From Phapecoctavirus DIJ07P2: a stretch of DNA of 64,000 nt. Both the position numbers and the translations under genes were made by a program. Within the stretch, counting starts at the first letter, position 1; every line of letters begins with the position of its first letter. This document shows positions 2,596 to 63,936 of this stretch, in pieces. The notes beneath the pieces are model-generated. The model was not told where the DNA came from. It made no database searches and saw only the letters and a list, made by a program, of their open reading frames with translations. The DNA is taken from sequence record OZ035771.1; one strand, 5' to 3'.

Positions 2596-2615
2596 CATTA
2601 TTTGGAATTAAGATC

Positions 2616-2813: not shown

Positions 2814-2819
2814 AAAGTA

Positions 2820-2878: not shown

Positions 2879-2902
2879 TCACAACAGAAGAGAGAAATCA
2901 TC

Positions 2903-3175: not shown

Positions 3176-3178
3176 GGC

Positions 3179-3233
3179 TTGACATTAACGAATAATTTGT
3201 TAATATGTTACATAAAGCGGGAACTATTCCCGC
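3179..3233 (+). promoter_or_regulatory. early promoter / 5' hairpin cassette 3
   Basis: -35 TTGACA 3179, -10 TAATAT 3201, stem GCGGGA/TCCCGC 3217-3233. Confidence 0.55.
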
Positions 3234-3251
3234 TATTTGTAAGGTGGTAGA

Positions 3252-3509
3252 ATGTTTTACATCAAATTAAAAGGTCACGTGATCGCGTTCAAGGATAACG
3301 CTTTTTACAGATTAGCAAAATATGCGTTAATACATCCCCATTATGTTTATATAAGGGGGCGTGATGAAATAAATATCTTTGATCAAACAACATGCGAGAA
3401 CATCGAGATCCGCAAGGTTGGCGTACGTGACTATCGTACATCTTTCTACCCTTGCAAGGATTCAGCAAGTCTTTTTAAAGTATGCCAATTGTTGAAAAAA
3501 GGTGGTTAA
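3252..3509 (+). CDS. hypothetical protein (85 aa)
   Basis: track ORF; GGTGG RBS. Confidence 0.6.
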   Translation: MFYIKLKGHVIAFKDNAFYRLAKYALIHPHYVYIRGRDEINIFDQTTCENIEIRKVGVRDYRTSFYPCKDSASLFKVCQLLKKGG

Positions 3510-3510
3510 T

Positions 3511-4068
3511 ATGGGCCGCGAATATGTGATCCAGTCTTGGGTAAAACATGAAGCAGATGATCCGCGCATCATTCCTGATTATCTTGTCGATGAATCCACG
3601 GGCTATAGCGGGGAGCAAATAGGTAACAGATTAGCACGTAGTAACGGCAACGTAAAAGCGCGTTATGTGCGCCCTGGCTGGCTGGCAAATGGTAACGCTG
3701 ATTTATCCAGTGCGGAAGATGCGAGCGACGGCGCGAAAGATAATCCTTTGTACAAAGTTGATCCGGCTTTTCGTGTCCTGGATGAATACCCCAGCAAGAT
3801 AGCGGCGCTCGATCAGGCCCTGGAAAGTAAGCGCATCACCTGGACCGCTTACAACATGGCAAAAAACGTACTTGATGGTAAATTGATTCAAGCTGAAAGA
3901 AAATTAGCCAAAATTGCAGCCATAGCCCAGGAGGAAGACGAGGAGACAACGGAAGAGGAAGAGTACGAAGAGATCCCGCCGTTGTTGTGTGTTGATGCTT
4001 TTCCTGATTATCAGCCGACAGAGGAAGAAAAAAGGATCGCACTAGAAAACTTTGAAAATAGTCTTTGA
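3511..4068 (+). CDS. hypothetical protein with acidic C-terminus (185 aa)
   Basis: track ORF 3502..4068 trimmed to ATG 3511 (AAGGTGG 5 nt upstream); C-terminal EEDEETTEEEEYEE. Confidence 0.55.
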   Translation: MGREYVIQSWVKHEADDPRIIPDYLVDESTGYSGEQIGNRLARSNGNVKARYVRPGWLANGNADLSSAEDASDGAKDNPLYKVDPAFRVLDEYPSKIAALDQALESKRITWTAYNMAKNVLDGKLIQAERKLAKIAAIAQEEDEETTEEEEYEEIPPLLCVDAFPDYQPTEEEKRIALENFENSL

Positions 4069-4122
4069 CATATCGCCGCCACTGGCATAATATTTACCAC
4101 GTAGGGCGGCAATGGTGCCGCT
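4065..4122 (+). promoter_or_regulatory. early promoter / 5' hairpin cassette 4
   Basis: -35 TTGACA 4065 overlapping previous stop, -10 TAATAT 4088, stem GCGGC/GCCGC. Confidence 0.6.
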
Positions 4123-4150
4123 CATAGTGAAATTATGCAAGAGGCTTACA

Positions 4151-4246
4151 ATGATTAATAAAGGAAATAGCTTGACGGTTGGAACGATTAACGCTATCAT
4201 TCTCGCCGTTCCATTTTGGGTTGTAGTAGCGGCTATTATTTTCTAA
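4151..4246 (+). CDS. hydrophobic micro-protein (31 aa, single TM helix)
   Basis: ATG 4151 after AGAGG; MINKGNSLTVGTINAIILAVPFWVVVAAIIF; below 60-aa track cutoff. Confidence 0.45.
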   Translation: MINKGNSLTVGTINAIILAVPFWVVVAAIIF

Positions 4247-4255
4247 AAAATATTC

Positions 4256-4316
4256 TTGACAACGTTTTTTAATCTGATAAGATGTATCACATAGGGCGGC
4301 GGAATACTTCCCCGCC
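4256..4316 (+). promoter_or_regulatory. early promoter / 5' hairpin cassette 5
   Basis: -35 TTGACA 4256, -10 TAAGAT 4278, stem GGCGGCGG/CCCCGCC. Confidence 0.6.
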
Positions 4317-4337
4317 AAAACAAAAAAGGGTAACACA

Positions 4338-4700
4338 ATGAGCAAGCAAATCAATACTATCATGTTTAATCTGGTATCTTTCCGCGATGATATGAAAAAT
4401 TTACCACGTGAAACGGTTGATATTCATGTTTCAGCTTATCGCGCCCTTATTGACATGTTACCGCTAAAACGTGATCAACATGCCGCTAATATGATGCTTA
4501 ATGCTATGCTTAAAAAGATGATTCAAACGGATCTCACCCTGGCATATGAGTATCAAGGGCGCTTATATGCAAATTACAACAGAGCGGTACCTGGTCTGGG
4601 AAGTACTGAAGAGTTGCACGGCTTAAACCTGGATCAAAACACTTGGGATAGTATGCGCCGCGTTATGGTATGGGCCGAAAGCGGTAAAATTTACGAATAA
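4338..4700 (+). CDS. hypothetical protein (120 aa)
   Basis: track ORF directly downstream of cassette 5. Confidence 0.6.
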   Translation: MSKQINTIMFNLVSFRDDMKNLPRETVDIHVSAYRALIDMLPLKRDQHAANMMLNAMLKKMIQTDLTLAYEYQGRLYANYNRAVPGLGSTEELHGLNLDQNTWDSMRRVMVWAESGKIYE

Positions 4701-4706
4701 AAACGG

Positions 4707-4763
4707 TTGACACTGTTTTTTATTCTGGTATAGTTTATCACGTAGGGCGGCAATGGTGCCGCC
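4707..4763 (+). promoter_or_regulatory. early promoter / 5' hairpin cassette 6
   Basis: -35 TTGACA 4707, -10 TATAGT 4729, stem GCGGC/GCCGC. Confidence 0.6.
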
Positions 4764-4783
4764 AACAATAAAAGGTTAACATC

Positions 4784-4963
4784 ATGACCATCATTGCAAA
4801 AACTGAGATTATAGGTTTAGATTCGATCCTCCTGGCTTATGAGGAAACTTTAAAAATGTATGTAGTGACCTATGGTGATTATGTGCGTGAATACGAATAC
4901 ATTGATCTTGCTTTCGAATGTTACATTCGCCAGGTCAATAAAGCCTATAACGATTATCGTTAA
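4784..4963 (+). CDS. hypothetical micro-protein (59 aa)
   Basis: ATG 4784 after AAAGG; 60 codons; below track cutoff. Confidence 0.5.
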   Translation: MTIIAKTEIIGLDSILLAYEETLKMYVVTYGDYVREYEYIDLAFECYIRQVNKAYNDYR

Positions 4964-4982
4964 AAGTTTTAGTCTTATACTA

Positions 4983-5034
4983 TTGACAATGAGTGATAGT
5001 ATAAGCATAATAACTTTTATCGGGAATACTTCCC
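4983..5034 (+). promoter_or_regulatory. early promoter / weak hairpin cassette 7
   Basis: -35 TTGACA 4983; short stem GGGAA/TTCCC 5021-5034. Confidence 0.45.
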
Positions 5035-5059
5035 ACTAACCAAAAAAGAGAGTAATATC

Positions 5060-5425
5060 ATGGCTATTAATATCAATGTTTCCTCTTATGCTACCCTGGC
5101 TGACACGGCTAAAATTGAATTATCCAGCATTGAGGCGGTGCATATTAGCGCCCGTCGTTGGTTTCAACAGTCCTACGGTAACACATATTTTTCTTTAATG
5201 GTTGACGTTGAGATCGGCGGTAAACTGATCGAGGTGGTTAACGTTCCGTTTCAATATGGTTATGGTGATCATTTTGATACCGTCGCCCTGGAAGAATTTA
5301 GCAAGGTTATTAATATGGAAGGTAAAGAGTTTTCACGCGGCGCGTATCTTTCCCGTTTTTGCCGTGATAATGGGATCACTGTATACAGTCATGCGAGCGA
5401 TGTTAAACGTAAAAAAGATTTATAA
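5060..5425 (+). CDS. hypothetical protein (121 aa)
   Basis: track ORF; conserved leader and ATG-GCT start. Confidence 0.6.
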   Translation: MAININVSSYATLADTAKIELSSIEAVHISARRWFQQSYGNTYFSLMVDVEIGGKLIEVVNVPFQYGYGDHFDTVALEEFSKVINMEGKEFSRGAYLSRFCRDNGITVYSHASDVKRKKDL

Positions 5426-5431
5426 AAAGCA

Positions 5432-5490
5432 TTGACAGCACGAATAAAAAGAGTAAACTGTATTACATAGAGAGCGGGAACACTTCCCGC
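5432..5490 (+). promoter_or_regulatory. early promoter / 5' hairpin cassette 8
   Basis: -35 TTGACA 5432, -10 TAAACT ~5455, stem GCGGGAA/TTCCCGC. Confidence 0.55.
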
Positions 5491-5515
5491 CTCACTGAAA
5501 AAAGAGATTAACATC

Positions 5516-5755
5516 ATGGCTAAATCAAAAATGTTCTTAGGTCACAAAAATAAAACTCATTGGAATGTAAGCCTTTGGATTAATAACGATGAATCGTTAT
5601 ATCGGTTGGCGAAAGAATTTATCGCCGCTAATACTAATCGTAATGATGCTGCCCGTGATATGATGTTATTCCTGGAACAAACTGGACAAGATAAAACTCC
5701 AGACGGTTTCAAGTATAGCACTACAGCGATCCGCGCCGCGATGGTTGGAATGTAA
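5516..5755 (+). CDS. hypothetical protein (79 aa)
   Basis: track ORF. Confidence 0.6.
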   Translation: MAKSKMFLGHKNKTHWNVSLWINNDESLYRLAKEFIAANTNRNDAARDMMLFLEQTGQDKTPDGFKYSTTAIRAAMVGM

Positions 5756-5768
5756 AGGAGATATAAAA

Positions 5769-5849
5769 ATGAAACATCGTTCTACCTATCTAACAAAACG
5801 TTTTAGCTTAGATCATAAATTGGGCTATTACGGAAGAAATAGAAAATAA
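5769..5849 (+). CDS. possible micro-ORF (26 aa)
   Basis: ATG 5769 with strong AAGGAG 7 nt upstream. Confidence 0.3.
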   Translation: MKHRSTYLTKRFSLDHKLGYYGRNRK

Positions 5850-15462: not shown

Positions 15463-16134
15463 ATGAAAAAGTTTGTTGTTTACAGTCGTCTTTCTAAACA
15501 GAAAAAAGGTGAGGCACAATATGGTATGGAGAGCCAAGAGAACGATATCCGTTACTTCTTAGACTCTGTGCCTGATGCTGAAGTTATTGGTCAATTTTCT
15601 GAATACTATTCGGGTAAGGGCGATTGGAAGCAACGTAAGGAACTGGTTAAAGCGGTTGAAATGTGTAAAGCTACCGGAGCAACTTTATTGGTAGCTAAAG
15701 TTGACCGCTTGGGTCGTAACAACGCATCCGTAGCAACTCTTCTAGAAATGATTGATGTTAAGATAGCCATCATGCCAGACGCAGATAAAATGGTTATACA
15801 GCTTCTGTCTGTTCTGGCTGAACAAGAAGTTAGAGGTATTGCTGATCGTATTAAAAAGGGTCTTGCTGTAGCAAAAAGCAAAGGTGTTTTATTAGGCAGT
15901 GCTAATCCTAAAACTGCTGCTGCACGTAGAAAAGGAAAAATGGAATACAATTCTGTTAAAGCAGACGCTTTTGCAGAGACATTTCGTGAACGCTTGGAGA
16001 TCCTTAGAGATTTAAATACACCTTACAAAACTATTGCTGAAAAATTCAATAGTAAGAAAATAGCAACAGCACGTGGTGGTAAATGGGATGCTAAAACTGT
16101 TTCTCGTTTGTGTGCCAGACTTAACATTAAATAG
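15463..16134 (+). CDS. serine recombinase (resolvase/invertase family)
   Basis: YSRLSK nucleophile context, VDRLGRN motif, VLAEQEVRGIADRIKKG helix; track ORF 15457 trimmed to ATG 15463 after AGGAG. Confidence 0.65.
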   Translation: MKKFVVYSRLSKQKKGEAQYGMESQENDIRYFLDSVPDAEVIGQFSEYYSGKGDWKQRKELVKAVEMCKATGATLLVAKVDRLGRNNASVATLLEMIDVKIAIMPDADKMVIQLLSVLAEQEVRGIADRIKKGLAVAKSKGVLLGSANPKTAAARRKGKMEYNSVKADAFAETFRERLEILRDLNTPYKTIAEKFNSKKIATARGGKWDAKTVSRLCARLNIK

Positions 16135-22965: not shown

Positions 22966-23766
22966 TTATTTGTTTAAATGGTCTTCAACCATTTTGATAA
23001 AGCCTTCATCACTGAAGACTGTTCCTGCTTTCTCTCGGTAGACAAGCACTCCACGTTCTTCGTAGAGAGTTTGTTCTACAAAATTCAAACCTGGGTTAAC
23101 TACAACCATCTTAACCCCAATATTCAGGGCAGGGAAGAGTTCCCAGTTGAAGTTGATTACTTGGTTAGAGCAGCCTACAACGATAACCATATCTTGTGAT
23201 GTTAGTTGATCCAGTTTGTGATACATGTCTGTGTAGAGCGGTGCATTCTCACCAAAAAACACCACATTAGGCTTCACATATTTGTAATCGTCTACATCAA
23301 TAGCTGCGTAACCCACATCTTTGATAATTTTGTTATCAACAACAACTTCTGGCAAGAAACCATGAACGTGCAATATTTCTTCTCTATCGATTCCAGCGCG
23401 TTCTAATAGATCGTCAACGTTAGTAGTGATGTTAATAATCCTTTCTGCACCGTATTTTTCGAACCATTCTCCAATCTGAAGATGTGCTGGATTCGGGTCA
23501 ACTTTCTCTAATTCCACGCGACGTTTATTGTAGAAGTCGTGAGTTTTACGGTAGAGGTTATATCCTTCCACATCTAAGCCACCCATAGCATCAGGAATAC
23601 CCTGTTCTTGCTGATAACCGGCACGGAAGTTGAAAATGTCACAAACCTCAGAAAGATCATAAGAAGACCATAACGCCTCCCCTGAAGAAGTATCTGTTCT
23701 AAAAGCTGGGATACCGCTATCCACAGATAGTCCTGCGCCAGTTATGAATATGACTCTACGCGGCAT
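22966..23766 (-). CDS. Sir2-family protein (no zinc ribbon)
   Basis: GAGLSVDSGIPAFR, TTNVDDL, HG, VVFFGE motifs; no CxxC...CxxC module. Confidence 0.7.
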   Translation of the reverse strand: MPRRVIFITGAGLSVDSGIPAFRTDTSSGEALWSSYDLSEVCDIFNFRAGYQQEQGIPDAMGGLDVEGYNLYRKTHDFYNKRRVELEKVDPNPAHLQIGEWFEKYGAERIINITTNVDDLLERAGIDREEILHVHGFLPEVVVDNKIIKDVGYAAIDVDDYKYVKPNVVFFGENAPLYTDMYHKLDQLTSQDMVIVVGCSNQVINFNWELFPALNIGVKMVVVNPGLNFVEQTLYEERGVLVYREKAGTVFSDEGFIKMVEDHLNK

Positions 23767-24496
23767 AAATCTCCTCCTTATATTTTTCGCAAATGCTTTT
23801 ATTTGCAGGTTTATATTTTTCTTTCATCACCTTCAATCTTAGCTTCTCCAGAGCTATAGCACATCTCTCTGGATCGTTGAAACCATATTTGCAATACGTG
23901 GTCTTGTCAAACACAAACTTGAAAAAGAATGTTCTCTCTCTTGTTGCCACAAACACACAACTTAATCCTGAAGTGTTATCTATACGCTTCTTTTCTTTTT
24001 TGATATAAGATCCTTTCAAAATTTCTTGTTTTGCTAAAGCTCTAGCTACAATAGCTTCCTCTTTAGTTTTGAAACCTGAAACAGAGAAAGTTTCTTGGTT
24101 GTAGTTTATAACCCAAAGAAAAACACCATCCTTTTCATAAATACCTTCTAACCCATCCACATGTCTATTATTATTATTTAATAAATAGTTACTATCTAAT
24201 AAATTACTTTCCGCATTATTAAGTTTATTGCCGTCGTCATGGTCTATAACATCTGGACAGTAATTATGGTACATTTTAAAACAAACTCTGTGCTCCAAGT
24301 ATACAATACCATCTATTTTGACATGAGAGTAACCAACTTTATCAATAGTCCCTGCAATCTTCCCTGCGTATCTGCTATTCCACCTTTTGTTCTCTTTTGT
24401 TGTAGAAGGTTTAGGTTTCCAAACAAGACGACCATTCTCCACACTAAACCTTGATAACAAGTAATCTCTATCTGGTAAGGGTTTTCGTTCTATCAT
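23756..24496 (-). CDS. HNH homing endonuclease with AP2-like DNA-binding domain
   Basis: YLEHRVCFKMYHNYCPDVIDHDDGNKLNNAESNL HNH motif; GFKTKEEAIVARA AP2-like segment. Confidence 0.75.
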   Translation of the reverse strand: MIERKPLPDRDYLLSRFSVENGRLVWKPKPSTTKENKRWNSRYAGKIAGTIDKVGYSHVKIDGIVYLEHRVCFKMYHNYCPDVIDHDDGNKLNNAESNLLDSNYLLNNNNRHVDGLEGIYEKDGVFLWVINYNQETFSVSGFKTKEEAIVARALAKQEILKGSYIKKEKKRIDNTSGLSCVFVATRERTFFFKFVFDKTTYCKYGFNDPERCAIALEKLRLKVMKEKYKPANKSICEKYKEEIYAA

Positions 24497-27438: not shown

Positions 27439-28374
27439 CTATTCCTCAAAAGGTTTAAGTAAGTGTTTATTAGCGTGGAATCTTTTGATGTAATCATCTT
27501 CTCCCATACTTTCATAAAGCTTCATCACGACATGGAAGGATTCATAGGCATATTCACGAAACCAACCACTAGTGATAGATGTGCAAACTTTAGATAAAGC
27601 CATCATAAAACTTTGCTTAGGTGTTGGACCTCCGATCTCTTCACCGAAAGGAATTTGTGAACGTTCCAAAGCCAAAACACACGCTTCTTCATAAACACCT
27701 AACAGGCGCACATGTTTTGGTTGAGCAAAAAACTTTTCTTTGCTGGTCATAACTTCACTTCCATCTTTCATATAAGATTTATATGCTGGAGCATCCATTA
27801 CCGCGATTGCTTCATGGATAGAATCATGATCATAAACATACGGAACCTCATCACCTTTAAAGAAGTCTTTACTTTTTACGTTTAAGTTCGGATGAGAGTA
27901 AGTGTATGTTTCTTTCTCACGCAACTCATAAATACTCTTAAGATTTTCTGGGATCTTTGCGCCCAGTGACCGCATGAAATGAATATCTTTCATAGTTTTA
28001 AAGAAGTGAGGACTATCCTTTTTAAAACGATGACTCATTTTAAGAAGGTAGAGCACATCTAAAGGAGCAACAACATGTCCAGCGTAAGTTCGACGAACAT
28101 CATCAGAATCTTCACAATAACTAATCAAAGCTTCTGTGCTATCTCCTTGAGAAGCAATATCGTATTCCAAATGTGCACCAGCTATCATTTTGACGTGGCC
28201 TTTGTTCCCTTTACGTTCTACAAGTTCAACAAACTCGTCTTGAGAGAACATTTTTGATAATTCTTCCCACTCTTGTTCTGTACAGAGATAATCTAAATCT
28301 ACACAAGGGCGATACAAGTCTTTTCCCATGTCCATAGCATGAATTTGTAATGCACGGCTACCAATTAACACCAT
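27439..28374 (-). CDS. hypothetical protein with possible nucleotidyltransferase-like motif
   Basis: N-terminal LIGSRAL...VDLDY resembles hG[GS]...DxD of Pol-beta-type NTases but spacing is atypical. Confidence 0.4.
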   Translation of the reverse strand: MVLIGSRALQIHAMDMGKDLYRPCVDLDYLCTEQEWEELSKMFSQDEFVELVERKGNKGHVKMIAGAHLEYDIASQGDSTEALISYCEDSDDVRRTYAGHVVAPLDVLYLLKMSHRFKKDSPHFFKTMKDIHFMRSLGAKIPENLKSIYELREKETYTYSHPNLNVKSKDFFKGDEVPYVYDHDSIHEAIAVMDAPAYKSYMKDGSEVMTSKEKFFAQPKHVRLLGVYEEACVLALERSQIPFGEEIGGPTPKQSFMMALSKVCTSITSGWFREYAYESFHVVMKLYESMGEDDYIKRFHANKHLLKPFEE

Positions 28375-36964: not shown

Positions 36965-37114
36965 CTATTCGTCATCTCCTACTCCGTGATCCAACTCGTT
37001 AAACAACAGGTGTTCTGGAGAAGTTTCACGTTTTGGTTTCGTTTTCTTTATGTTGGACTTCAGCTCATTTGCCAAAGCACGAGAAAAGATCTTACGTTTC
37101 TGTTTACTTTTCAT
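36965..37114 (-). CDS. basic micro-protein (49 aa)
   Basis: ATG 5 nt after glutaredoxin stop, GGAG RBS; MKSKQKRKIFSRALANELK... Confidence 0.4.
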   Translation of the reverse strand: MKSKQKRKIFSRALANELKSNIKKTKPKRETSPEHLLFNELDHGVGDDE

Positions 37115-37119
37115 AATTG

Positions 37120-37380
37120 TTACTCCGCAATTTGAGCCATGAGATCACGCAGTTCGGTAAAACCGCCTACGTATGTTACCTCCCCGTTCACTTCAGACAG
37201 AATTTGTGGAAATGTGCGTGGAGGAACTCCGGTAAGATCAACAACTGTTTTAGTCATTGATTCTAAATCGTAGTCTTGGTCAAGACTTAAATATTCAAAC
37301 TGTTTATTGCGCATGGTTAATAGTTGTTTTGACATTTCGCAAAATTGACAGTTAGGTTTACCAAAAATTACAAATTCCAT
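37120..37380 (-). CDS. glutaredoxin (NrdH/NrdC-like)
   Basis: CQFC active site in an 86-aa thioredoxin-fold-sized protein next to RNR genes. Confidence 0.7.
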   Translation of the reverse strand: MEFVIFGKPNCQFCEMSKQLLTMRNKQFEYLSLDQDYDLESMTKTVVDLTGVPPRTFPQILSEVNGEVTYVGGFTELRDLMAQIAE

Positions 37381-38222
37381 TACCTCTCCTTATTAAGTAA
37401 TACTGCTAAAGACCGTTCAATACCTTTATTTAAATCTGATTTTGTAAGATAGTGACTGGTTACTAATTGTGACTTCACCGGACGTGCTGCTGGAGCATTA
37501 TAGGTTGAAGCTGATACCGCCGATATCTTAACAGGTTCTGGCATCTGTGTCAAGATCTTTTCCGCAAACTCCGCCCAAGAAATAAGATGGCTTCCTGCAA
37601 AATGGTAAGTCTTTACAGATCTTGACCAACCTGTTTTTAATACTTCAAAAATAGCTTCTGCTAAATCTGGGGCATATGTTGGACAAGAGAACTGATCAGC
37701 AACAATAATAAAATCACGTTGTCCATCATTATAGCGAGACAACATGGTTTTTAGAAAGTTATTTCCAAATTCACTATATACAGACGCTGTTCGAATAATA
37801 TATGCGTTTGGGTTAACTCCTCGCACCATTTTTTCACCGAGTTCTTTCGTATACCCATAATTGTTTATCGGGTTAGGTGTAGTGTCTTCAAAAATAGGAT
37901 GAGAATAATTAAAAATATAGTCTGTAGAAATATGCACAAAATCAATTTTAAGTTTGCTGCACACTGCCGCAATATTTGCAGGGCCATAGGCATTAACAGC
38001 CAAAGCAGTAGCAAAATCCTGTTCTGCTTTATCTACAGCCGTATAAGCAGCGCAATTAATAACACCATCTACATAATCTTCAACAATAGCGTTTCGCACA
38101 GCTTCAAAATTTGTAATATCTACACGTTCTTTAGGATAAATTAAAGACACATTTGAAGGAGCCACTTTACGTAAAGCTTGTCCCAGTTGTCCATTACCAC
38201 CCAATACCAGATATGTTAGCAT
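37380..38222 (-). CDS. rmlD: dTDP-4-dehydrorhamnose reductase-like
   Basis: N-terminal LVLGGNGQLG Rossmann motif, 280 aa, translationally coupled to the RmlC-like gene. Confidence 0.7.
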   Translation of the reverse strand: MLTYLVLGGNGQLGQALRKVAPSNVSLIYPKERVDITNFEAVRNAIVEDYVDGVINCAAYTAVDKAEQDFATALAVNAYGPANIAAVCSKLKIDFVHISTDYIFNYSHPIFEDTTPNPINNYGYTKELGEKMVRGVNPNAYIIRTASVYSEFGNNFLKTMLSRYNDGQRDFIIVADQFSCPTYAPDLAEAIFEVLKTGWSRSVKTYHFAGSHLISWAEFAEKILTQMPEPVKISAVSASTYNAPAARPVKSQLVTSHYLTKSDLNKGIERSLAVLLNKER

Positions 38223-38782
38223 ACACCCTCGCTACGTAGCTGTTGAAAAGACTTAGCCATTGCATCTTTTGTTGATAAGATAGGTTTAAAATCTTCGTCA
38301 AAAATCATATCGAAGCCCCAATCAATCCCTATATCAGGATCATCCCAACGTAAACTTTGTTCGCTGGAAGGGTCGTATGGAGTTGTGCATTTGTATTCGA
38401 AGATAGCATCCATACTCAACACTATAAAACCATGCGCCAAACCAGGTGGAAGCCAGAACTGTGTATGGTGTCGTGCACGAAGAACAACACCGTCCCAAGC
38501 ACCGTAAGTAGGACTATCTTTACGTAGGTCTACAGCGAAATCCAATACTTCCCCACTTACACAACGAACAAGCTTACCTTGCGGATTATTTGTTTGAAAG
38601 TGCATTCCTCGCAAAACACCGAAGTTTGATTTAGACATGTTATCTTGAACGAAAGTTTGTCTACCGATGATATCTTCGTATTTTTGTTCATTATATGTTT
38701 CTAAAAAGAAACCACGATCATCTTTATAAACGTCTGGTTTGATAATTACCGCACCTTCAATTTTTGTTTTTTCTACTTTCAT
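38216..38782 (-). CDS. rmlC: dTDP-4-dehydrorhamnose 3,5-epimerase-like
   Basis: RGFFLETY ... VLRGMHFQ ... GKLVRCVSGEVLDFAVDLR ... WLPPGLAHGF; start trimmed to ATG 38782 (GGAGAG RBS). Confidence 0.8.
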   Translation of the reverse strand: MKVEKTKIEGAVIIKPDVYKDDRGFFLETYNEQKYEDIIGRQTFVQDNMSKSNFGVLRGMHFQTNNPQGKLVRCVSGEVLDFAVDLRKDSPTYGAWDGVVLRARHHTQFWLPPGLAHGFIVLSMDAIFEYKCTTPYDPSSEQSLRWDDPDIGIDWGFDMIFDEDFKPILSTKDAMAKSFQQLRSEGVC

Positions 38783-38926
38783 TTTCTCTCCGCTAATTTG
38801 AGTAGGTATTGCCCGTACTCTGTTTTCTTCAGTGAGTTTCCATGATATACCAAAGTCTCTAAAGAAATCCACCCTTTTTTGAAAGCAATTTCTTCCAGGC
38901 ACGCAATCTTCAACCCTTGACGGTTC

Positions 38927-39847
38927 TCAATAGTTTGCACTCCAACCCAGTTCAGACTCTATCTTAGAAGGATTGATTTCATAACGCAAGTCATGCCCTT
39001 TACGATCTTCAACAAAAGTTATCAAGTTGGAAGAAGGGTAGGTTCCTGCTTCTGGATGTACAGCATCCATGTAGTCACAAACCATATAGATGATCTCCAT
39101 ATTGGTTTTGGGATTACGTGTTCCCACATTATACGTTTTACCTGGTTCTCCACCTGTTGCCACTTGAAGAATAGCTCGCGCATGATCCTCAACAAAAAGC
39201 CAGTCTCGCACCTGATCGCCTTTACCATACACCGGAATCTCTTTATTCGTCAAGATACTTGTGATGATTTTTGGGATCAGCTTTTCTGGATGTTGATAGG
39301 GTCCAAAGTTATTGGAGCAGTTGGTTATCACAACAGGCAAATCGTAGGTACGGTGCCAAGCTTTCACAAGATGGTCAGATGCTGCCTTAGACGCACTGTA
39401 TGGGCTTGAAGGGGCATAAGCTGTCTCTTCGGTAAAGGGAACGCCAGAGTCTGCCATATCGCCGTACACTTCGTCTGTGGAGACGTGTACGAACATCTTC
39501 AGTTTATTCTTTGGGAGGAGCCTTGCAGCTTCCAATAAATTGTATGTACCAATAATATTGGAGTCGATGAAAACTCGTGGATTCTTGATAGAATTATCCA
39601 CATGACTCTCTGCCGCTAAGTGAATGATGAAATCGGGATTGCACTCTACTACTAAACTTTTTACTTGGGCTTCGTTTGCCAAATCTGTCATGCTTAGTTT
39701 AACGTGAGTGATATCGCCTACATTCTCAATATCTGCTGCATAGCTCATCTTATCAACGACAAAAACTTCGTTATTAGGATCTTGACAAAGAGAGCGCACC
39801 ACGGCACTCCCAATAAAACCAAGACCACCTGTTACCAGATAGCGCAT
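38927..39847 (-). CDS. rmlB: dTDP-glucose 4,6-dehydratase
   Basis: MRYLVTGGLGFIGSAVV, HLAAESHVD, YAPSSPYSASKAASDHL, YGKGDQVRDWLFVEDHA match RmlB/RffG-type enzymes. Confidence 0.85.
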   Translation of the reverse strand: MRYLVTGGLGFIGSAVVRSLCQDPNNEVFVVDKMSYAADIENVGDITHVKLSMTDLANEAQVKSLVVECNPDFIIHLAAESHVDNSIKNPRVFIDSNIIGTYNLLEAARLLPKNKLKMFVHVSTDEVYGDMADSGVPFTEETAYAPSSPYSASKAASDHLVKAWHRTYDLPVVITNCSNNFGPYQHPEKLIPKIITSILTNKEIPVYGKGDQVRDWLFVEDHARAILQVATGGEPGKTYNVGTRNPKTNMEIIYMVCDYMDAVHPEAGTYPSSNLITFVEDRKGHDLRYEINPSKIESELGWSANY

Positions 39848-39856
39848 CAGTTCTCC

Positions 39857-40183
39857 TTACCAGACGTTTTGTGATACTAATGTTTCAGTTTCAATATTAT
39901 ACTTATTAAGCAGTTCAAAATAGATCTCATTCGCTTTTTTATTTAAGCTTGTGAGGTCTATGGCACAAGCACCACAGCCGCTACACAGCTTGACACCGAA
40001 GACACAATCTTCAGGATCTGCATCGTACCACGGGGAAATGTTTTCCAAGCCCAAACCTTCGCAGAGAAACCAATTAAAGTCCCCATCGAACTGGTCTTCA
40101 ACTTGTGGGTCGTCTCCAAATATTTCTTTCCATTTATCATATGGTGCACCCTGTAACATACGCCATTCGATATCAATACCCAT
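39857..40183 (-). CDS. hypothetical protein (108 aa)
   Basis: track ORF. Confidence 0.45.
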   Translation of the reverse strand: MGIDIEWRMLQGAPYDKWKEIFGDDPQVEDQFDGDFNWFLCEGLGLENISPWYDADPEDCVFGVKLCSGCGACAIDLTSLNKKANEIYFELLNKYNIETETLVSQNVW

Positions 40184-40337
40184 TATTCATCTCCTCCTCT
40201 TCTTGAGCAGCTTTAATAATTGCTTCATAAATATCGTAAGCAATACCTCCACAACATCTAGCTTCGAAAGCTATTGCTTCTGCAATGTGATCTGTTAATT
40301 CTCGTGGAATGCGGACATACTCTTTTTCACTCTCCAT
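40173..40337 (-). CDS. possible micro-protein (54 aa)
   Basis: ATG overlapping neighbours; acidic C-terminus; below track cutoff. Confidence 0.3.
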   Translation of the reverse strand: MESEKEYVRIPRELTDHIAEAIAFEARCCGGIAYDIYEAIIKAAQEEEEMNNGY

Positions 40338-41773: not shown

Positions 41774-41818
41774 TTAAAATTCTCCTCGATAAAAAAGGGG
41801 GCCGAAGCCCCTTTATAT

Positions 41819-42475
41819 TTAGCCTCGAAACACTGTTTTTGTTTCAGCCAGATGCCAATAGAAATCCGCCTTGTTTACAAGAGTGTTGTACACCTCTTGA
41901 TAAAAATGTTCTTCCTCTTTGTAACGATCCGCTGTTTCCCTGATTGACTTAGCTTTATCCTTTAGCCAAGCGAAGTGTGCCTCTTCCTCTGTAGCGAAGT
42001 AACCTAAATGCTTACCTTTGCTCCCAGAAGCTTTGGCATAAATCTTACCATCTTTCCTAACATGTGCTCCTAGTAAGTATTTTCTTTCATACCTCTTAGC
42101 ATAACTTAAGAGTGTATTTATGTAAGGAGGAACAAACCTACAATATTCAGGACAGTAAACAGTATTTCCTTCAAGAACAAGATCTTTATCTAAAACAAAG
42201 CCTTCCACGTTATGTTCTTGATACCAGTTATCAAAGTTTGAAAAGGTGAACCAAGCATCACACACGGTAACATCTTTATAACCTGGTCTAATGTTTTCCA
42301 TACGATATGCGCGATTAAACATGCCTTTCCAAGCTGCATAGGAAGGATCTATGAATGTATTAACCCTTTTTCCATTGATAACACCACCTTCCCACAATCT
42401 ACGTTCAACATCCACAATCAAGGGGATTTCTCCCCTCTCTGTGAGAACGGTAACTTTACGTTTACCCTTCTTCAT
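41819..42475 (-). CDS. homing-endonuclease-like protein between nrdA and nrdB
   Basis: VTVCDAWFTFSNFDNWY and LGYFATEEEAHFAW segments shared with the 26766 protein. Confidence 0.5.
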   Translation of the reverse strand: MKKGKRKVTVLTERGEIPLIVDVERRLWEGGVINGKRVNTFIDPSYAAWKGMFNRAYRMENIRPGYKDVTVCDAWFTFSNFDNWYQEHNVEGFVLDKDLVLEGNTVYCPEYCRFVPPYINTLLSYAKRYERKYLLGAHVRKDGKIYAKASGSKGKHLGYFATEEEAHFAWLKDKAKSIRETADRYKEEEHFYQEVYNTLVNKADFYWHLAETKTVFRG

Positions 42476-61423: not shown

Positions 61424-61498
61424 GGCCCTGTAGCTCAATGGGAGAGCTGTCGGCTCATAACCGATAGGTAGCTGGATCGAAACCAGCCAGGGCCACCA
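61424..61498 (+). tRNA. tRNA-Met (CAT) or Ile2
   Basis: acceptor GGCCCTG/CAGGGCC, anticodon loop CTCATAA, T-arm GCTGG-ATCGAAA-CCAGC, A73, CCA encoded. Confidence 0.75.
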
Positions 61499-61500
61499 AC

Positions 61501-61575
61501 GTCTTTATGGTGTAATGGATAGCACAGGAGTCTTCTAAACTCTTAGTCAAGGTTCGATTCCTTGTAAAGACACCA
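61501..61575 (+). tRNA. tRNA-Arg (TCT)
   Basis: acceptor GTCTTTA/TAAAGAC, anticodon loop CTTCTAA, T-loop TTCGATT. Confidence 0.75.
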
Positions 61576-61771
61576 GAACATTTTAACATGAATTAGCTCA
61601 AGTGATTTGAACCCACTACTGATCATGGTGGCAGAGAATGAGGCAAGTATGTCAGACATTATAAACAAAGGCCACGGTTATATTAGAAGACATAAATGCT
61701 CGAAGAGCACTGTTCGTGGAGAACGGGGGTTGGTGGAGTCACCATTCATGGTAAAATGTTTTAAAAAACTA

Positions 61772-61800
61772 TTGACAACAAGCATTATTTTATGTTAGAT
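61772..61800 (+). promoter_or_regulatory. sigma70-like promoter for downstream tRNAs
   Basis: TTGACA 61772, 17-nt spacer, TTAGAT. Confidence 0.45.
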
Positions 61801-61809
61801 TATAAGTAT

Positions 61810-61900
61810 GGAAGGGCAAATCGACGTGGCGACGAAAACGGTCTTGAAAACCGCCGAGCTTGAAAGAGCCTTGGGAGTTCGACTCTCCCTCCTTCCGCCA
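61810..61900 (+). tRNA. tRNA-Ser (TGA)
   Basis: anticodon arm CGGTCTTGAAAACCG identical to enterobacterial tRNA-Ser(UGA); long variable arm; T-arm GGGAG-TTCGACT-CTCCC. Confidence 0.75.
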
Positions 61901-61905
61901 GATTA

Positions 61906-61991
61906 GGTAGATTGGTGAAATGGTAGCCACGACAGTTTGCTAAACTGTAGTCGGAAACGGCGTGTAGGTTCGAGTCCTACATCTACCGCCA
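61906..61991 (+). tRNA. tRNA-Ser (GCT)
   Basis: acceptor GGTAGAT/ATCTACC, anticodon loop TTGCTAA, long variable arm. Confidence 0.7.
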
Positions 61992-62121
61992 AGTTCTTTT
62001 TAATGTAGCTTACTTTAGCAGAGTAAATCTTCGGCAAGTGGCGGTAACCACTTTACCGATAACTCATAGTTAGTGGTGTGAACACTGGCTATTTTAAAAA
62101 GAATTTAAATATTAGTATTTA

Positions 62122-62209
62122 GGTGAGTTAATTCCGTAGGGGTAGCGGGGCAGACTGTAAATCTGTTATCATTGCGATTCGGGTGGTTCGACTCCATCAC
62201 TCACCACCA
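62122..62209 (+). tRNA. tRNA-Tyr (GTA)
   Basis: acceptor GGTGAGT/ACTCACC, anticodon arm GCAGA-CTGTAAA-TCTGT, long variable arm, A73. Confidence 0.7.
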
Positions 62210-62215
62210 AATTAA

Positions 62216-62301
62216 GATGAGTTGGCTGAATGGTTTAAGCGGCGGACTGTTAATCCGTGTTCGAAAGAACAATATAGGTTCGAATCCTATACTCATCGCC
62301 A
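62216..62301 (+). tRNA. type-II tRNA with Asn anticodon GTT
   Basis: acceptor GATGAGT/ACTCATC, anticodon arm GCGGA-CTGTTAA-TCCGT, 15-nt variable region, G73. Confidence 0.55.
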
Positions 62302-62308
62302 GAATTAT

Positions 62309-62385
62309 GGACTTGTAGAGTTAAGGTAAACCCCCAGTCGCCAATAGGCTTCTGGAATTGCAGGTATCGAATCCTGCCGAGTCCC
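62309..62385 (+). ncRNA. tRNA-like element without canonical anticodon arm
   Basis: acceptor-like GGACTTG/CGAGTCC and T-arm GCAGG-TATCGAAT-CCTGC, but no 5-7-5 anticodon stem-loop and no encoded CCA. Confidence 0.3.
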
Positions 62386-62391
62386 AGCATT

Positions 62392-62466
62392 GCTCCTATA
62401 GTATAATGGCTATTACAACGGTTTTGTAATCCGTGGATCTCTGTTCGATTCAGTGTGGGAGCACCA
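62392..62466 (+). tRNA. tRNA-Thr (TGT)
   Basis: acceptor GCTCCTA/TGGGAGC, anticodon loop TTTGTAA, T-loop TTCGATT, A73. Confidence 0.7.
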
Positions 62467-62741
62467 ACACAACATTAAGAGCACTGTGATTGATCGTCGT
62501 ATCCTGTGCACAAGGTCTGCTCGAAAGACAGTGTTCTTAGTATTGTGTTGATCACAAAAAGAGTCACCCGAAACTTGACCGGAGTAGGGTTGGATGGGGC
62601 AAAATGAGAAGCGGCTCTCCCATCGACAGCAACGAAGAATAATATTTGACTTTGGTTTTGTATTATTTTAAGTTAGCTTACCGAACGTAGGGCTAGTCAC
62701 CCAAAGGGATACTCGTCACTGTCCCACCTATTAAATAACTA

Positions 62742-62771
62742 TTGACATTCGATAGTAAAATGTAGTATAGT
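62742..62771 (+). promoter_or_regulatory. sigma70-like promoter for downstream tRNAs
   Basis: TTGACA 62742, 18-nt spacer, TATAGT. Confidence 0.45.
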
Positions 62772-62788
62772 AAATATATATATACAAA

Positions 62789-62865
62789 GCGTTATTAGTG
62801 TTAGCGGTTCAGCATCCCGTCCTTCCAAGTCGGTGGCATCGGTTCGAATCCGATATAACGCTCCA
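62789..62865 (+). tRNA. tRNA-Gly (TCC)
   Basis: acceptor GCGTTAT/ATAACGC, anticodon loop CTTCCAA, T-arm ATCGG-TTCGAAT-CCGAT, U73. Confidence 0.7.
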
Positions 62866-62963
62866 AATTATTTAATAAAGGGTTGCCAGAAAACTTTCTC
62901 TTTTACTAATGGTTTTCTCTTTCTCTCACACCTCTTCTGGTTGCCCTTCATTAAATGATTTAT

Positions 62964-63039
62964 TGGTTTGTAGTGTAGTCCGGTAGCACACGACACTTTG
63001 ACTGTCGTAGGTTTGGTTCAAATCCAGACAGACCAGCCA
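62964..63039 (+). tRNA. tRNA-Gln (TTG)
   Basis: anticodon arm CGACA-CTTTGAC-TGTCG, T-loop TTCAAAT, G73. Confidence 0.7.
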
Positions 63040-63083
63040 TATAACAAAGGTGAGTCACTACCTTAAGTGCGAAGTTAAAATAT

Positions 63084-63160
63084 ACAGCCTTTAGCTCAAC
63101 CTGGTAGAGTGCATCGTTTGGGGCGATGAAGTTAAAAGTTCGAATCTTTTAAGGCTGACC
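63084..63160 (+). tRNA. tRNA-Pro (TGG)
   Basis: C1:G72 acceptor CAGCCTT/AAGGCTG, anticodon arm CATCG-TTTGGGG-CGATG, T-loop TTCGAAT, A73. Confidence 0.75.
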
Positions 63161-63235
63161 AAATTACAATTCCATGCGTCTGACAAAAGGTTAGTCGGTA
63201 TAAGACGTGGGATTTAATACTTATAAGGAGGACTT

Positions 63236-63577
63236 ATGTATAAATGTAGCCATTGTGGTGAAGAAGATCCGCAAAAGTTCTACGGTCATAAGAAATCTAT
63301 TTGTGGTTATTGTCATAATAAGTATACAATAGACTTAGGACAACAGAAAAAGAAGTATGCTCGTGATAAGTTAGGTGGTAAGTGTGTTTCCTGCGGTTAC
63401 GATAAATATCAGGAAGCTTTAGATATACACCATCTTGATCCGACAATAAAAGACCGGAGTTTCGCATCCATGCGTGGGTGGTCGCTTAAGAGGATTGATA
63501 AAGAGATAGAGAACTGCATCTTACTATGTAAGAACTGTCATTCAGCTTTCCATTCTGGTCATGATATTACTTGGTAG
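63236..63577 (+). CDS. HNH endonuclease within tRNA cluster
   Basis: CSHCG...CGYCH...DIHHLDP...CKNCH; AAGGAGG RBS. Confidence 0.75.
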   Translation: MYKCSHCGEEDPQKFYGHKKSICGYCHNKYTIDLGQQKKKYARDKLGGKCVSCGYDKYQEALDIHHLDPTIKDRSFASMRGWSLKRIDKEIENCILLCKNCHSAFHSGHDITW

Positions 63578-63591
63578 TAATACTAATTAAA

Positions 63592-63665
63592 TGTTTCGTA
63601 GTTCAATGGTAGAACCCACGACTGATAATCGTGAGACACAAGTTCGATTCTTGTCGAAACAACCA
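63592..63665 (+). tRNA. tRNA-Ile (GAT)
   Basis: acceptor TGTTTCG/CGAAACA, anticodon arm CACGA-CTGATAA-TCGTG, T-loop TTCGATT, A73. Confidence 0.7.
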
Positions 63666-63667
63666 GT

Positions 63668-63737
63668 TTCCCGTTAGACTTACAGGATAAGAGATCCACA
63701 ATTTATTGTGACGCTGGTTCGAATCCAGCACGGGATA
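63668..63737 (+). ncRNA. tRNA-like element with degenerate anticodon arm
   Basis: T-arm GCTGG-TTCGAAT-CCAGC and acceptor-like TTCCCGT/ACGGGAT (1-72 mismatch), middle forms CACAA-ttta-TTGTG instead of an anticodon arm. Confidence 0.3.
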
Positions 63738-63742
63738 CATAA

Positions 63743-63821
63743 TAGCGGGATAGAGGAGTCTGGTCGTCCTCGCCAGTTTCATATGCTGGAGATCATTGGT
63801 TCAAATCCAATTCCCGCCTCC
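63743..63821 (+). tRNA. tRNA with CAT anticodon (second Met/Ile2-type)
   Basis: anticodon arm CCAGT-TTCATAT-GCTGG, T-arm ATTGG-TTCAAAT-CCAAT, A1-C72 mismatch, U73. Confidence 0.6.
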
Positions 63822-63936
63822 AAATATCGCTTGCCAGCGGTATCTTTGAAGACCTTGCCTGGTTCCTTCTAAGATGGAGGGGTGCGACTCCTTAACGCAC
63901 AATCATAATAAAACATTTCAAATTAACAGTATTTAT

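What the first reader, a model, noticed from the sequence alone, without database searches (positions are those of the whole stretch)
37380..39847. Phage-encoded RmlB-RmlC-RmlD block without RmlA, embedded in the nucleotide-metabolism operon
Clear homologs of dTDP-glucose 4,6-dehydratase, dTDP-4-dehydrorhamnose 3,5-epimerase and dTDP-4-dehydrorhamnose reductase are translationally coupled between nrdB and glutaredoxin/lysozyme/phoH. Glucose-1-phosphate thymidylyltransferase (RmlA) and any glycosyltransferase are absent from the window. The phage would therefore draw on host dTDP-glucose to make a dTDP-6-deoxyhexose, which could feed DNA or virion glycosylation, remodel host surface polysaccharide, or drain a host precursor pool.
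Basis: partly seen in the sequence, partly recalled or inferred. Interest (0 to 1): 0.65.

Follow-up and report, generated by a model that had tools for sequence, protein, structure and literature searches.

The report
Phage rhamnose genes with deleted rmlA
This is the well-known four-gene dTDP-rhamnose cluster of phAPEC8-like E. coli phages after a recent 811-base deletion destroyed rmlA and clipped rmlB, so it is an ordinary mutant of a known cluster, not a phage built to work without RmlA.

Summary
The three ORFs are real and pass NCBI's equivalog models for RmlB, RmlC and RmlD. The window is a Phapecoctavirus (phAPEC8-like E. coli myophage). Its relatives carry rmlB-rmlA-rmlC-rmlD at exactly this locus.

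Here an 811-bp deletion between an imperfect 9-bp repeat (GTGCA[A/G]ACT, window 38932-38940) removed two things:
- the last 25 codons of rmlB;
- the first ~239 codons of rmlA, leaving a 53-codon rmlA 3' remnant (38779-38940).

None of 47 matching GenBank phage records carries this junction. An independent read-based assembly (ERR12949680) reproduces it exactly.

Loss of rmlA is not new in this genus. 22 of 63 records are clean rmlC-rmlD-only variants, and one of them (ESCO37) is published. rmlC and rmlD are always kept, under strong purifying selection.

E. coli almost universally has its own rmlA and rmlB homologues, so host supply of the precursor is plausible.

Glycosyltransferases are missing from the window, but all sampled phapecoctaviruses carry a conserved block of four about 75 kb away. 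The acceptor of the sugar is unknown.

Low novelty. The BACD / B'CD / CD allelic series has modest value for experiments.

The parts
38927..39847 (-). [quoted passage not shown]
   Evidence: TIGR01181 400.3 bits, profile 1-297/321; full-length relative 431.6 bits, 1-319/321; lost part aligns to about residues 321-341 of the solved Salmonella RmlB structure 1G1A
38932..38940 (.). Deletion junction: imperfect 9-bp microhomology GTGCAAACT (rmlB side) / GTGCAGACT (rmlA side); 811 bp of the ancestral cluster missing here
   Evidence: alignment to Ro121c4YLVW and nieznany: window 37000-38940 and 38932-40200 map 811 bp apart; junction absent from phage records and IMG/VR; junction reproduced in Logan assembly of ERR12949680
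38779..38940 (-). rmlA pseudogene remnant: last 53 codons plus stop of glucose-1-phosphate thymidylyltransferase, out of frame with rmlB', stop still overlapping the rmlC start (ATGA)
   Evidence: TIGR01207 positions 236-286/286, 59 bits vs cut-off 360.65; tblastn: residues 240-292, 100% identity, no other RmlA match in window
38216..38782 (-). rmlC: dTDP-4-dehydrorhamnose 3,5-epimerase, 188 aa, true start ATG at 38782 with its own GGAGA ribosome-binding site (not the GTG at 38902 listed mechanically)
   Evidence: TIGR01221 225.4 bits; aligns to 1DZR; the GMHFQ, GKLVRC, FEYK and TKDA motifs are conserved; I assign these to the catalytic His, Lys, Tyr and Asp from memory of the RmlC literature; pN/pS 0.00-0.06
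37380..38222 (-). rmlD: dTDP-4-dehydrorhamnose reductase, 280 aa, overlaps rmlC by 7 nt and glutaredoxin by 1 nt
   Evidence: TIGR01214 238 bits; aligns to 3SC6; GxxGxxG, STDY, YGYTK intact; pN/pS 0.03-0.10
37120..37380 (-). Glutaredoxin gene immediately downstream (context: nucleotide-metabolism array nrdA-HNH-nrdB-...-rml-grx-lysozyme-phoH)
   Evidence: PF00462

Best explanation
The region is the dTDP-L-rhamnose gene cluster (rmlB-rmlA-rmlC-rmlD) that sits between nrdB and glutaredoxin in Stephanstirmvirinae phages. In this Phapecoctavirus genome it has been damaged by a recent 811-bp deletion between two copies of an imperfect 9-bp repeat.

Shown:
- The deletion joins rmlB codon 305 out of frame to the last 53 codons of rmlA. 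RmlA is therefore gone, and RmlB loses its conserved C-terminal 25 residues.
- RmlC and RmlD are intact.

Inferred:
- As in the roughly one third of phapecoctavirus records that lack rmlB and rmlA altogether, the phage can still make dTDP-L-rhamnose. It would take dTDP-glucose, or more probably dTDP-4-keto-6-deoxy-D-glucose, from the host enzymes RfbA/RffH and RfbB/RffG, which nearly every E. coli has.
- The phage rmlB-rmlA pair is a dispensable booster, while rmlC-rmlD is the indispensable part.
- The sugar most probably feeds a conserved block of four glycosyltransferase-like genes near the primase/helicase gene, outside this window.

Unknown: the acceptor, which could be a virion protein, DNA or a host glycan.
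For: Deletion:
- Window 37000-38940 and 38932-40200 align to positions 811 bp apart in the closest relatives, at 98.5-99.4% identity, with a 9-nt overlap.
- Relatives have rmlB of 330 aa and rmlA of 292 aa at this locus.
- The same gene order holds in the sister genus Justusliebigvirus and in phiWec179, so the four-gene state is probably ancestral.

Recency:
- The remnant has 0 nonsynonymous and 5 synonymous differences from Ro121c4YLVW.
- rmlB' has pN/pS of 0.04-0.08.

Reality of the deletion:
- The exact truncated protein occurs on two Logan contigs.
- The ERR12949680 contig is 100% identical to the window over 6,921 bp including the junction. Its coordinates are offset so that the window cannot be a slice of it.

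Dispensability of rmlB-rmlA and retention of rmlC-rmlD:
- 22 of 63 records carry one clean rmlC-rmlD-only junction.
- ESCO37 is published as lacking both genes (PMC10269720).
- Klebsiella phage KP13-26 is also rmlC-rmlD only.
- rmlC+rmlD occur at >=90% identity in 64 records, against 47 for rmlA.
- rmlC and rmlD have pN/pS <=0.10 even against rmlC-rmlD-only lineages.
- Catalytic motifs are intact.

Host supply:
- rmlA-like DNA is in 5,422 of 5,426 complete E. coli genomes.
- rffG/rfbB-like DNA is in at least 5,189 of them.

Consumers of the sugar:
- A four-gene glycosyltransferase block is present in 64 records at >=95% identity, including rmlC-rmlD-only phages, and in phi92 (gp163-166).
- In a distant phage contig, an NDP-hexose 4,6-dehydratase-like gene lies directly beside homologues of these glycosyltransferases.
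Against: - No enzyme activity, sugar pool or glycoconjugate has been measured.
- Whether truncated RmlB folds or works is unknown.
- The glycosyltransferase block lies outside the window. Its presence in this genome is inferred from conservation across every record that matched at 95% identity or more (64, the same number that carry rmlC-rmlD), not observed.
- The link between the rml genes and that block rests on co-conservation and one gene-neighbourhood case.
- The deletion is supported by two assemblies, but possibly from a single phage stock. Raw reads were not inspected, so a mixed population cannot be excluded.
- The rmlC-rmlD-only junction is flanked by a diverged upstream ORF allele. 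That polymorphism may reflect old module exchange rather than simple repeated deletion.
Confidence: 0.85

Rival explanations
1. This is an evolved three-gene RmlB-RmlC-RmlD module that deliberately omits RmlA and lives on host dTDP-glucose.
For: All three proteins pass their equivalog cut-offs. The host RmlA homologue is near universal.
Against: - An rmlA 3' stub with no amino-acid change, and a truncated RmlB, mark a fresh deletion.
- The junction is unique among 47 matching phage records and absent from IMG/VR.
- The stable RmlA-less form in the genus lacks RmlB as well.
Confidence: 0.04
2. The deletion is an assembly or sequencing artefact, or a minor subpopulation, and the real phage has the intact four-gene cluster.
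For: Only one sequencing project is known to carry it. I could not inspect the reads.
Against: - Two assemblies agree base for base over the junction.
- The breakpoints lie in an 8/9 microhomology, typical of slippage or illegitimate recombination.
- Short-read assemblers do not normally delete 811 bp of unique sequence at a 9-bp imperfect repeat.
Confidence: 0.06
3. The whole pathway is now dead in this phage. The deletion is the first step of decay, and rmlC and rmlD are no longer used.
For: The first two steps are lost or damaged. Polar effects on rmlC translation are conceivable, because rmlB' now stops 144 nt upstream.
Against: - rmlC keeps its own GGAGA ribosome-binding site. This is the same one used in the 22 records that have only rmlC-rmlD.
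- Those lineages keep rmlC and rmlD under pN/pS <=0.10.
- So rmlC-rmlD without the phage's own rmlB-rmlA is a selected, working state.
Confidence: 0.1
4. Rival at the level of function. The rhamnose is put on phage DNA as a T4-like hypermodification, as Olsen et al. 2020 speculated.
For: - The rml genes sit in the nucleotide-metabolism array, and the glycosyltransferases sit next to primase/helicase and DNA polymerase.
- The GT-A member has faint similarity to TET-associated and hmC glucosyltransferases: Pfam TAGT at E = 1.2e-3, and PHROG 842 at 7.5e-6.
- The idea is raised in PMC7552041.
Against: - The TAGT hit is below cut-off (19.3 vs 27.5 bits) and covers only 37 residues.
- No ThyA-type hydroxymethylase is in the window; there is only a ThyX-like protein.
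- phi92-like relatives are 'exceptionally susceptible' to restriction-modification systems (PMC8594841).
- No paper on rhamnosylated phage DNA was found.
- Four glycosyltransferases suggest an oligosaccharide rather than a single-sugar base decoration.
Confidence: 0.15

Closest known systems
rmlBACD cluster of Phapecoctavirus (phAPEC8, Ro121c4YLVW, nieznany, ESCO5 and others)
   Same: - Same locus between nrdB and glutaredoxin, and same gene order.
- 97-99% nucleotide identity on both sides of the deletion.
- RmlC is identical to that of Ro121c4YLVW, and RmlD differs at only two residues.
   Different: 811 bp are missing. rmlA is reduced to a 53-codon stub, and RmlB is shortened from 330 to 306 aa. 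No other record has this junction.
Natural rmlC-rmlD-only phapecoctaviruses (ESCO37, nepoznato, anhysbys, ZCKP1, Mt1B1_P17, WPEC1/2/4/6 and others)
   Same: No functional phage RmlA. rmlC and rmlD are intact and use the same GGAGA ribosome-binding site. Dependence on host dTDP-sugar is implied.
   Different: Those genomes lack rmlB completely. They share one clean junction (TAAGGAGA|GAAAATG) linked to a diverged upstream ORF allele. The window keeps 92% of rmlB and a piece of rmlA, so it is an independent and much younger event.
Bacterial dTDP-L-rhamnose pathway (RfbB/RfbA/RfbC/RfbD; RffG/RffH of enterobacterial common antigen synthesis)
   Same: - Same enzyme families, at equivalog level.
- Full-length phage RmlB aligns end to end with Salmonella RmlB (1G1A).
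- RmlC aligns with 1DZR and RmlD with 3SC6.
   Different: - The genes are phage-borne and sit among nucleotide-metabolism genes rather than in an O-antigen cluster.
- There is no adjacent rhamnosyltransferase, flippase or polymerase.
- The first step is missing here.
T-even phage DNA glucosylation and mycobacteriophage virion glycosylation (phage systems that consume nucleotide sugars)
   Same: A lytic phage that encodes its own glycosyltransferases, and here also its own sugar-nucleotide supply.
   Different: - No hydroxymethylase was found, and relatives are sensitive to restriction-modification systems.
- The donor would be a dTDP-6-deoxyhexose rather than UDP-glucose.
- No glycosylated product has been shown for any Stephanstirmvirinae phage in the papers I could search.

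Membership tests
Complete RmlABCD dTDP-L-rhamnose pathway | RmlA, glucose-1-phosphate thymidylyltransferase (TIGR01207 above 360.65 bits) | tested here: not met
   Only a 53-aa C-terminal fragment is present: 59 bits, profile positions 236-286 of 286. tblastn finds no other copy in the window.
Complete RmlABCD dTDP-L-rhamnose pathway | RmlB, dTDP-glucose 4,6-dehydratase (TIGR01181 above 365.1 bits, NAD-binding and Tyr-x-x-x-Lys / Thr-Asp-Glu motifs) | tested here: met
   400.3 bits. The GGLGFIG, STDEVYG and YSASK motifs are present.
Complete RmlABCD dTDP-L-rhamnose pathway | RmlB full length, including the conserved C-terminal helix | tested here: not met
   The profile is matched only over positions 1-297 of 321. 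25 residues (STFEQDLYSTIEWYLNNPQWWSEKI) are replaced by Y. Of the lost segment, TFEQDLYSTIEWYLNNPQW aligns to 1G1A residues 321-341. The effect on activity was not tested.
Complete RmlABCD dTDP-L-rhamnose pathway | RmlC, 3,5-epimerase (TIGR01221; catalytic His, Lys, Tyr, Asp) | tested here: met
   225.4 bits against 155.75. The GMHFQ, GKLVRC, FEYK and TKDA motifs align with 1DZR.
Complete RmlABCD dTDP-L-rhamnose pathway | RmlD, 4-reductase (TIGR01214; GxxGxxG, Thr/Tyr/Lys triad) | tested here: met
   238 bits against 224.05. The GGNGQLG, STDY and YGYTK motifs align with 3SC6.
Complete RmlABCD dTDP-L-rhamnose pathway | Enzymes active; dTDP-L-rhamnose produced | not testable with these tools
   Needs enzyme assays or LC-MS of infected cells.
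Stephanstirmvirinae rml locus | Position between nrdB (plus small ORFs) and glutaredoxin-lysozyme-phoH, on the same strand, with high identity to genus members | tested here: met
   97-99% identity and an identical neighbourhood.
ESCO37-type rmlC-rmlD-only variant | Clean junction TAAGGAGA|GAAAATG, with no rmlB or rmlA sequence | tested here: not met
   The window keeps rmlB codons 1-305 and the rmlA stub. The junction differs.
Lysogenic-conversion O-antigen modification cassette (gtrABC-type) | Temperate phage with GtrA/GtrB/type-specific membrane glycosyltransferases next to an attachment site and integrase | tested here: not met
   - No Gtr or GT2 families were found among the window proteins scanned.
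- The genus is described as lytic (PMC10269720).
- The glycosyltransferases of relatives are GT-B-like and GT-A-like proteins next to primase/helicase; no Gtr family matched them.
T4-type DNA hydroxymethyl-base glycosylation | ThyA-family hydroxymethylase plus a DNA glycosyltransferase; resistance to restriction | tested here: inconclusive
   - Only a ThyX-like protein is in the window.
- The TAGT hit of the relatives' GT-A protein is below cut-off.
- The fold search gives only a generic GT-A fold.
- Relatives are reported as restriction-sensitive.
- DNA chemistry was not tested.

The most novel reading that the evidence does not exclude
Stephanstirmvirinae phages run a conserved but uncharacterised glycosylation system. 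Its core would be rmlC-rmlD plus four glycosyltransferases, and it would tap the host's dTDP-4-keto-6-deoxy-glucose, the branch-point precursor for enterobacterial common antigen and O-antigen synthesis. The phage rmlB-rmlA pair would only boost supply.

On this reading, the window's phage is a natural hypomorph in an allelic series (BACD, B'CD, CD). That series could be used to find the rhamnosylated target: a virion protein, DNA or a host envelope glycan.
Probability: 0.35. Interest if true: 0.55.

Novelty: new member of a known kind. Interest (0 to 1): 0.22.

Why it matters
In itself this matters little. The cluster is annotated in dozens of phage genomes, its oddity has been remarked on in print (PMC7552041), and natural loss of rmlA and rmlB has been reported (ESCO37, PMC10269720).

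Three comparisons made here add something:
- rmlC-rmlD is the invariant part of the cluster.
- rmlB-rmlA is dispensable and exchangeable.
- A co-conserved block of four glycosyltransferases is the likely consumer of the sugar.

Together with this new partial-deletion allele, that gives a ready-made natural series. It could be used to test what phage-made dTDP-rhamnose is for, which is still unanswered for a phage group widely used in therapy cocktails.

Tried and rejected
- Junction searches in IMG/VR with an exact 28-mer and a degenerate 21-mer found nothing.
- The DNA-level search for host rfbC/rfbD with the phage genes hit only 77 of 5,426 E. coli genomes. It plainly lacks sensitivity (no hit covered more than 24% of the query, and none touched rmlD), so I do not use it as a frequency estimate.
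- Sequence searches of three of the four glycosyltransferases against PDB chains, and of all four against NCBIfam, gave no real hits.
- The AlphaFold model of the GT-A member (pLDDT 89.5) matched only generic GT-A folds: STIV A197, vaccinia H3, TarP and LH3. It does not identify an acceptor.
- The promoter and terminator scan was at background level (35 found against 27.5 +/- 5.1 expected) and added nothing beyond one terminator-like hairpin upstream of nrdB.
- Idea dropped: RmlC and RmlD divert the precursor of enterobacterial common antigen in order to remove the phage's own receptor. The later BASEL paper assigns Justusliebigvirus to the NGR glycan instead (PMC11990801). The ancestral cluster also includes RmlA and RmlB, which would raise the flux, not drain it.
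- Idea not pursued for lack of any evidence: dTDP-rhamnose acts as a feedback inhibitor of host RmlA to spare dTTP.
- Literature searches for rhamnosylated phage DNA returned nothing.
- I did not predict the structure of truncated RmlB, because a model would not settle whether it is active.
Full report
**What is there.**
On the minus strand the window holds the following ORFs:
- a 306-aa ORF at 38927-39847;
- a 188-aa ORF at 38216-38782. Its true start is the ATG at 38782; the 228-aa GTG-started version in the mechanical list runs through upstream non-coding remnant;
- a 280-aa ORF at 37380-38222;
- then glutaredoxin, a small ORF, lysozyme and phoH.

Upstream lie four small ORFs, nrdB, an HNH endonuclease gene and nrdA. 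Pfam and NCBIfam identify the three proteins:

| Protein | NCBIfam model | Score | Cut-off |
|---|---|---|---|
| RmlB | TIGR01181 | 400.3 | 365.1 |
| RmlC | TIGR01221 | 225.4 | 155.75 |
| RmlD | TIGR01214 | 238 | 224.05 |

Alignments to solved structures show the cofactor and catalytic motifs in place.

**What the window is.**
The region is 97-99% identical to Phapecoctavirus genomes, the phAPEC8-like E. coli myophages of subfamily Stephanstirmvirinae. The best matches are Ro121c4YLVW and nieznany. In every top hit, the 3.2-kb query spreads over 4.0 kb of the record in two or three pieces.

Annotation of the relatives shows why. They carry four genes at this locus:
- rmlB, 330 aa;
- rmlA, 292 aa;
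- rmlC, 188 aa;
- rmlD, 280 aa.

**The deletion.**
Pairwise BLAST places window 37000-38940 and 38932-40200 at positions 811 bp apart in the relatives, with a 9-nt overlap. The sequences in gene orientation are:
- rmlB side: ...GGAGTGCAAACT|CTACATT...
- rmlA side: ...TTCGTGCAGACT|ATTGAGAAC...
- window: ...GGAGTGCAAACTATTGAGAAC...

This is a deletion between two copies of an 8/9-matching repeat.

Its consequences are:
- rmlB is joined after codon 305, out of frame, to the tail of rmlA. RmlB now ends ...GWSANY* and lacks 25 residues.
- 19 of those 25 residues (TFEQDLYSTIEWYLNNPQW) align to the conserved terminal segment, residues 321-341, of Salmonella RmlB (1G1A). The truncated protein stops at TIGR01181 profile position 297 of 321.
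- The first ~239 codons of rmlA are gone.
- The last 53 codons remain at 38779-38940. Their stop still overlaps the rmlC start (ATGA).
- This stub matches TIGR01207 positions 236-286 and is 100% identical in protein to residues 240-292 of the relative's RmlA. No other RmlA-like sequence is in the window.

**Is the deletion real, and how old is it?**
- None of 47 phage records that match the junction probe carries both halves contiguously.
- IMG/VR has no match to the junction.
- The exact truncated RmlB is on record on two Logan contigs. The one returned is a 143-kb assembly of run ERR12949680. It is identical to the window over 6,921 bp including the junction.
- Its coordinates are offset so that the window cannot be a slice of that contig.
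- So an independent read-based assembly reproduces the deletion. I could not look at the reads themselves.
- The stub has no amino-acid change against Ro121c4YLVW, only five synonymous differences. rmlB' shows pN/pS of 0.04-0.08. Neither has begun to decay, so the event is recent.

**How this fits the genus.**
Loss of rmlA is common in Phapecoctavirus, but in a different form.
- A probe across the junction seen in ESCO37 and nepoznato finds 22 of 63 records with a clean rmlC-rmlD-only arrangement. These are 18 distinct phages once GenBank/RefSeq duplicates are removed.
- All of those that I aligned share the junction TAAGGAGA|GAAAATG.
- MirsaeidiM_Esher1 has another junction.
- Klebsiella phage KP13-26 is also rmlC-rmlD only.
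- The four-gene order is shared with Justusliebigvirus and with phiWec179, so it is probably ancestral.
- rmlC+rmlD are found at >=90% identity in 64 records, rmlA in only 47.
- rmlC and rmlD show pN/pS of 0.00-0.10 between the window and both BACD and rmlC-rmlD-only lineages.

In short, rmlC-rmlD is the conserved core and rmlB-rmlA is dispensable. The window is a third, so far unique, allele (B'CD).

**Why rmlB-rmlA can be lost (inference).**
The phage rmlA sequence finds an annotated rfbA-type gene in 5,422 of 5,426 complete E. coli genomes. The phage rmlB finds rffG or rfbB in at least 5,189.

From established knowledge, rffH and rffG belong to the enterobacterial common antigen pathway and make dTDP-4-keto-6-deoxy-D-glucose. 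That compound is exactly the substrate of RmlC. rfbC and rfbD occur only in strains with rhamnose-containing O antigens.

A phage that keeps rmlC-rmlD can therefore make dTDP-L-rhamnose in any E. coli. It applies better to the rmlC-rmlD-only phages than to a designed B-C-D block. My attempt to measure the frequency of host rfbC/rfbD by DNA search was too insensitive to use.

**Where the sugar may go.**
The window has no glycosyltransferase. I scanned 36 of the larger proteins with Pfam, then rescanned 10 Pfam-negative proteins (nine of those plus the 108-aa ORF upstream of rmlB) with PHROGs.

Close relatives, however, carry four consecutive glycosyltransferase-like genes beside the primase/helicase gene, about 75 kb from the rml genes (vB_Ec-G1 87984-91128). 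They comprise:
- two paralogous GT-B-like proteins (PHROG 7162, with weak Glyco_trans_1 hits);
- one GT-A-like protein with an invariant FDDD motif (PHROG 2456);
- one 187-aa protein (PHROG 14179).

The block is present at >=95% identity in 64 records, including rmlC-rmlD-only phages. It is present at about 70% identity in Justusliebigvirus, including phi92 gp163-166.

An AlphaFold model of the GT-A member (pLDDT 89.5) matches only generic GT-A folds. In a distant phage contig, an NDP-hexose 4,6-dehydratase-like gene lies directly next to homologues of the GT-A and GT-B genes. That ties the block to a 6-deoxyhexose supply.

The acceptor remains unknown. DNA glycosylation has been suggested (PMC7552041). 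It is disfavoured by three observations:
- phi92-like relatives are sensitive to restriction (PMC8594841);
- no hydroxymethylase is in the window;
- four transferases point to an oligosaccharide.

That this genome has the block at all is inferred from its conservation in the genus, not seen.

**Verdict.**
This is a fresh deletion mutant of a known, repeatedly annotated phage gene cluster. It joins an already described pattern of rmlA/rmlB loss. It is a new member of a known kind and of low interest in itself.

What remains open, and mildly interesting, is what dTDP-rhamnose does for this phage subfamily. The BACD / B'CD / CD alleles and the co-conserved glycosyltransferase block give a direct way to test that.

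Noticed in passing
window 41819-42475 (-): A 218-aa HNH homing-endonuclease-like ORF (PHROG 953, E = 2e-56) is inserted between nrdA and nrdB. It is present in nieznany and absent from ESCO37 and Ro121c4YLVW, so it behaves as a mobile insertion. A terminator-like hairpin lies just downstream, at 41798-41811.
   Followed up: partly
L013 12984-16128 (vB_Ec-G1 PQ433349 87984-91128); outside the window: A conserved block of four glycosyltransferase-like genes lies next to primase/helicase. It is found in all sampled phapecoctaviruses and in phi92 (gp163-166). Its function is unknown, and it is the likely consumer of the rml product.
   Followed up: partly
L018 2667-5319 (Logan SRR24146891 contig, 135 kb): This distant phage has an NDP-hexose 4,6-dehydratase-like SDR (TIGR01181 171 bits, below cut-off) immediately upstream of homologues of the GT-A and GT-B genes, beside primase/helicase and DNA polymerase A.
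   Followed up: partly
L017 (phiWec179 LC739533) 2500-5775: The cluster is a mosaic. rmlA is about 90% identical to the Phapecoctavirus gene. rmlC-rmlD of the same proposed genus (measured in phiWec186) is only about 68% identical. This suggests that the rmlB-rmlA pair is exchanged as a module between Stephanstirmvirinae lineages.
   Followed up: partly
window 22966-24496 (-): A SIR2-family protein (266 aa) lies directly next to a 246-aa protein with an HNH_3 domain. ESCO37 annotates the first as an NAD-dependent deacetylase.
   Followed up: no
window 814-1356 (+) and 15463-16134 (+): There is a NADAR-domain protein (E = 8e-35) and a 223-aa serine-recombinase (Resolvase) domain protein. The second is unexpected in a phage genus described as strictly lytic.
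   Followed up: no
window 61424-63822 (+): An array of 10 tRNA genes (Met x2, Arg, Ser, Asn, Thr, Gly, Gln, Pro, Ile). This matches the 10 tRNAs reported for phapecoctaviruses.
   Followed up: no
window 27439-28374 (-): A 311-aa protein made of DUF7277 plus DUF7275 (E = 9e-75). Its function is unknown.
   Followed up: no
phage records: Records labelled Campylobacter, Acinetobacter, Pseudomonas and 'Dompiswa' phage are 96-98% identical to E. coli phapecoctaviruses over these loci. The host labels are probably wrong, or the isolates are contaminants.
   Followed up: no
L004 2401-2491 versus window 39857-39950: The 3' end of the 108-aa ORF upstream of the cluster is a clearly diverged allele in rmlC-rmlD-only phages; BACD genomes match only the rmlC half of the junction probe. 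The BACD/CD polymorphism is therefore linked to flanking divergence and may be old or spread by recombination.
   Followed up: partly
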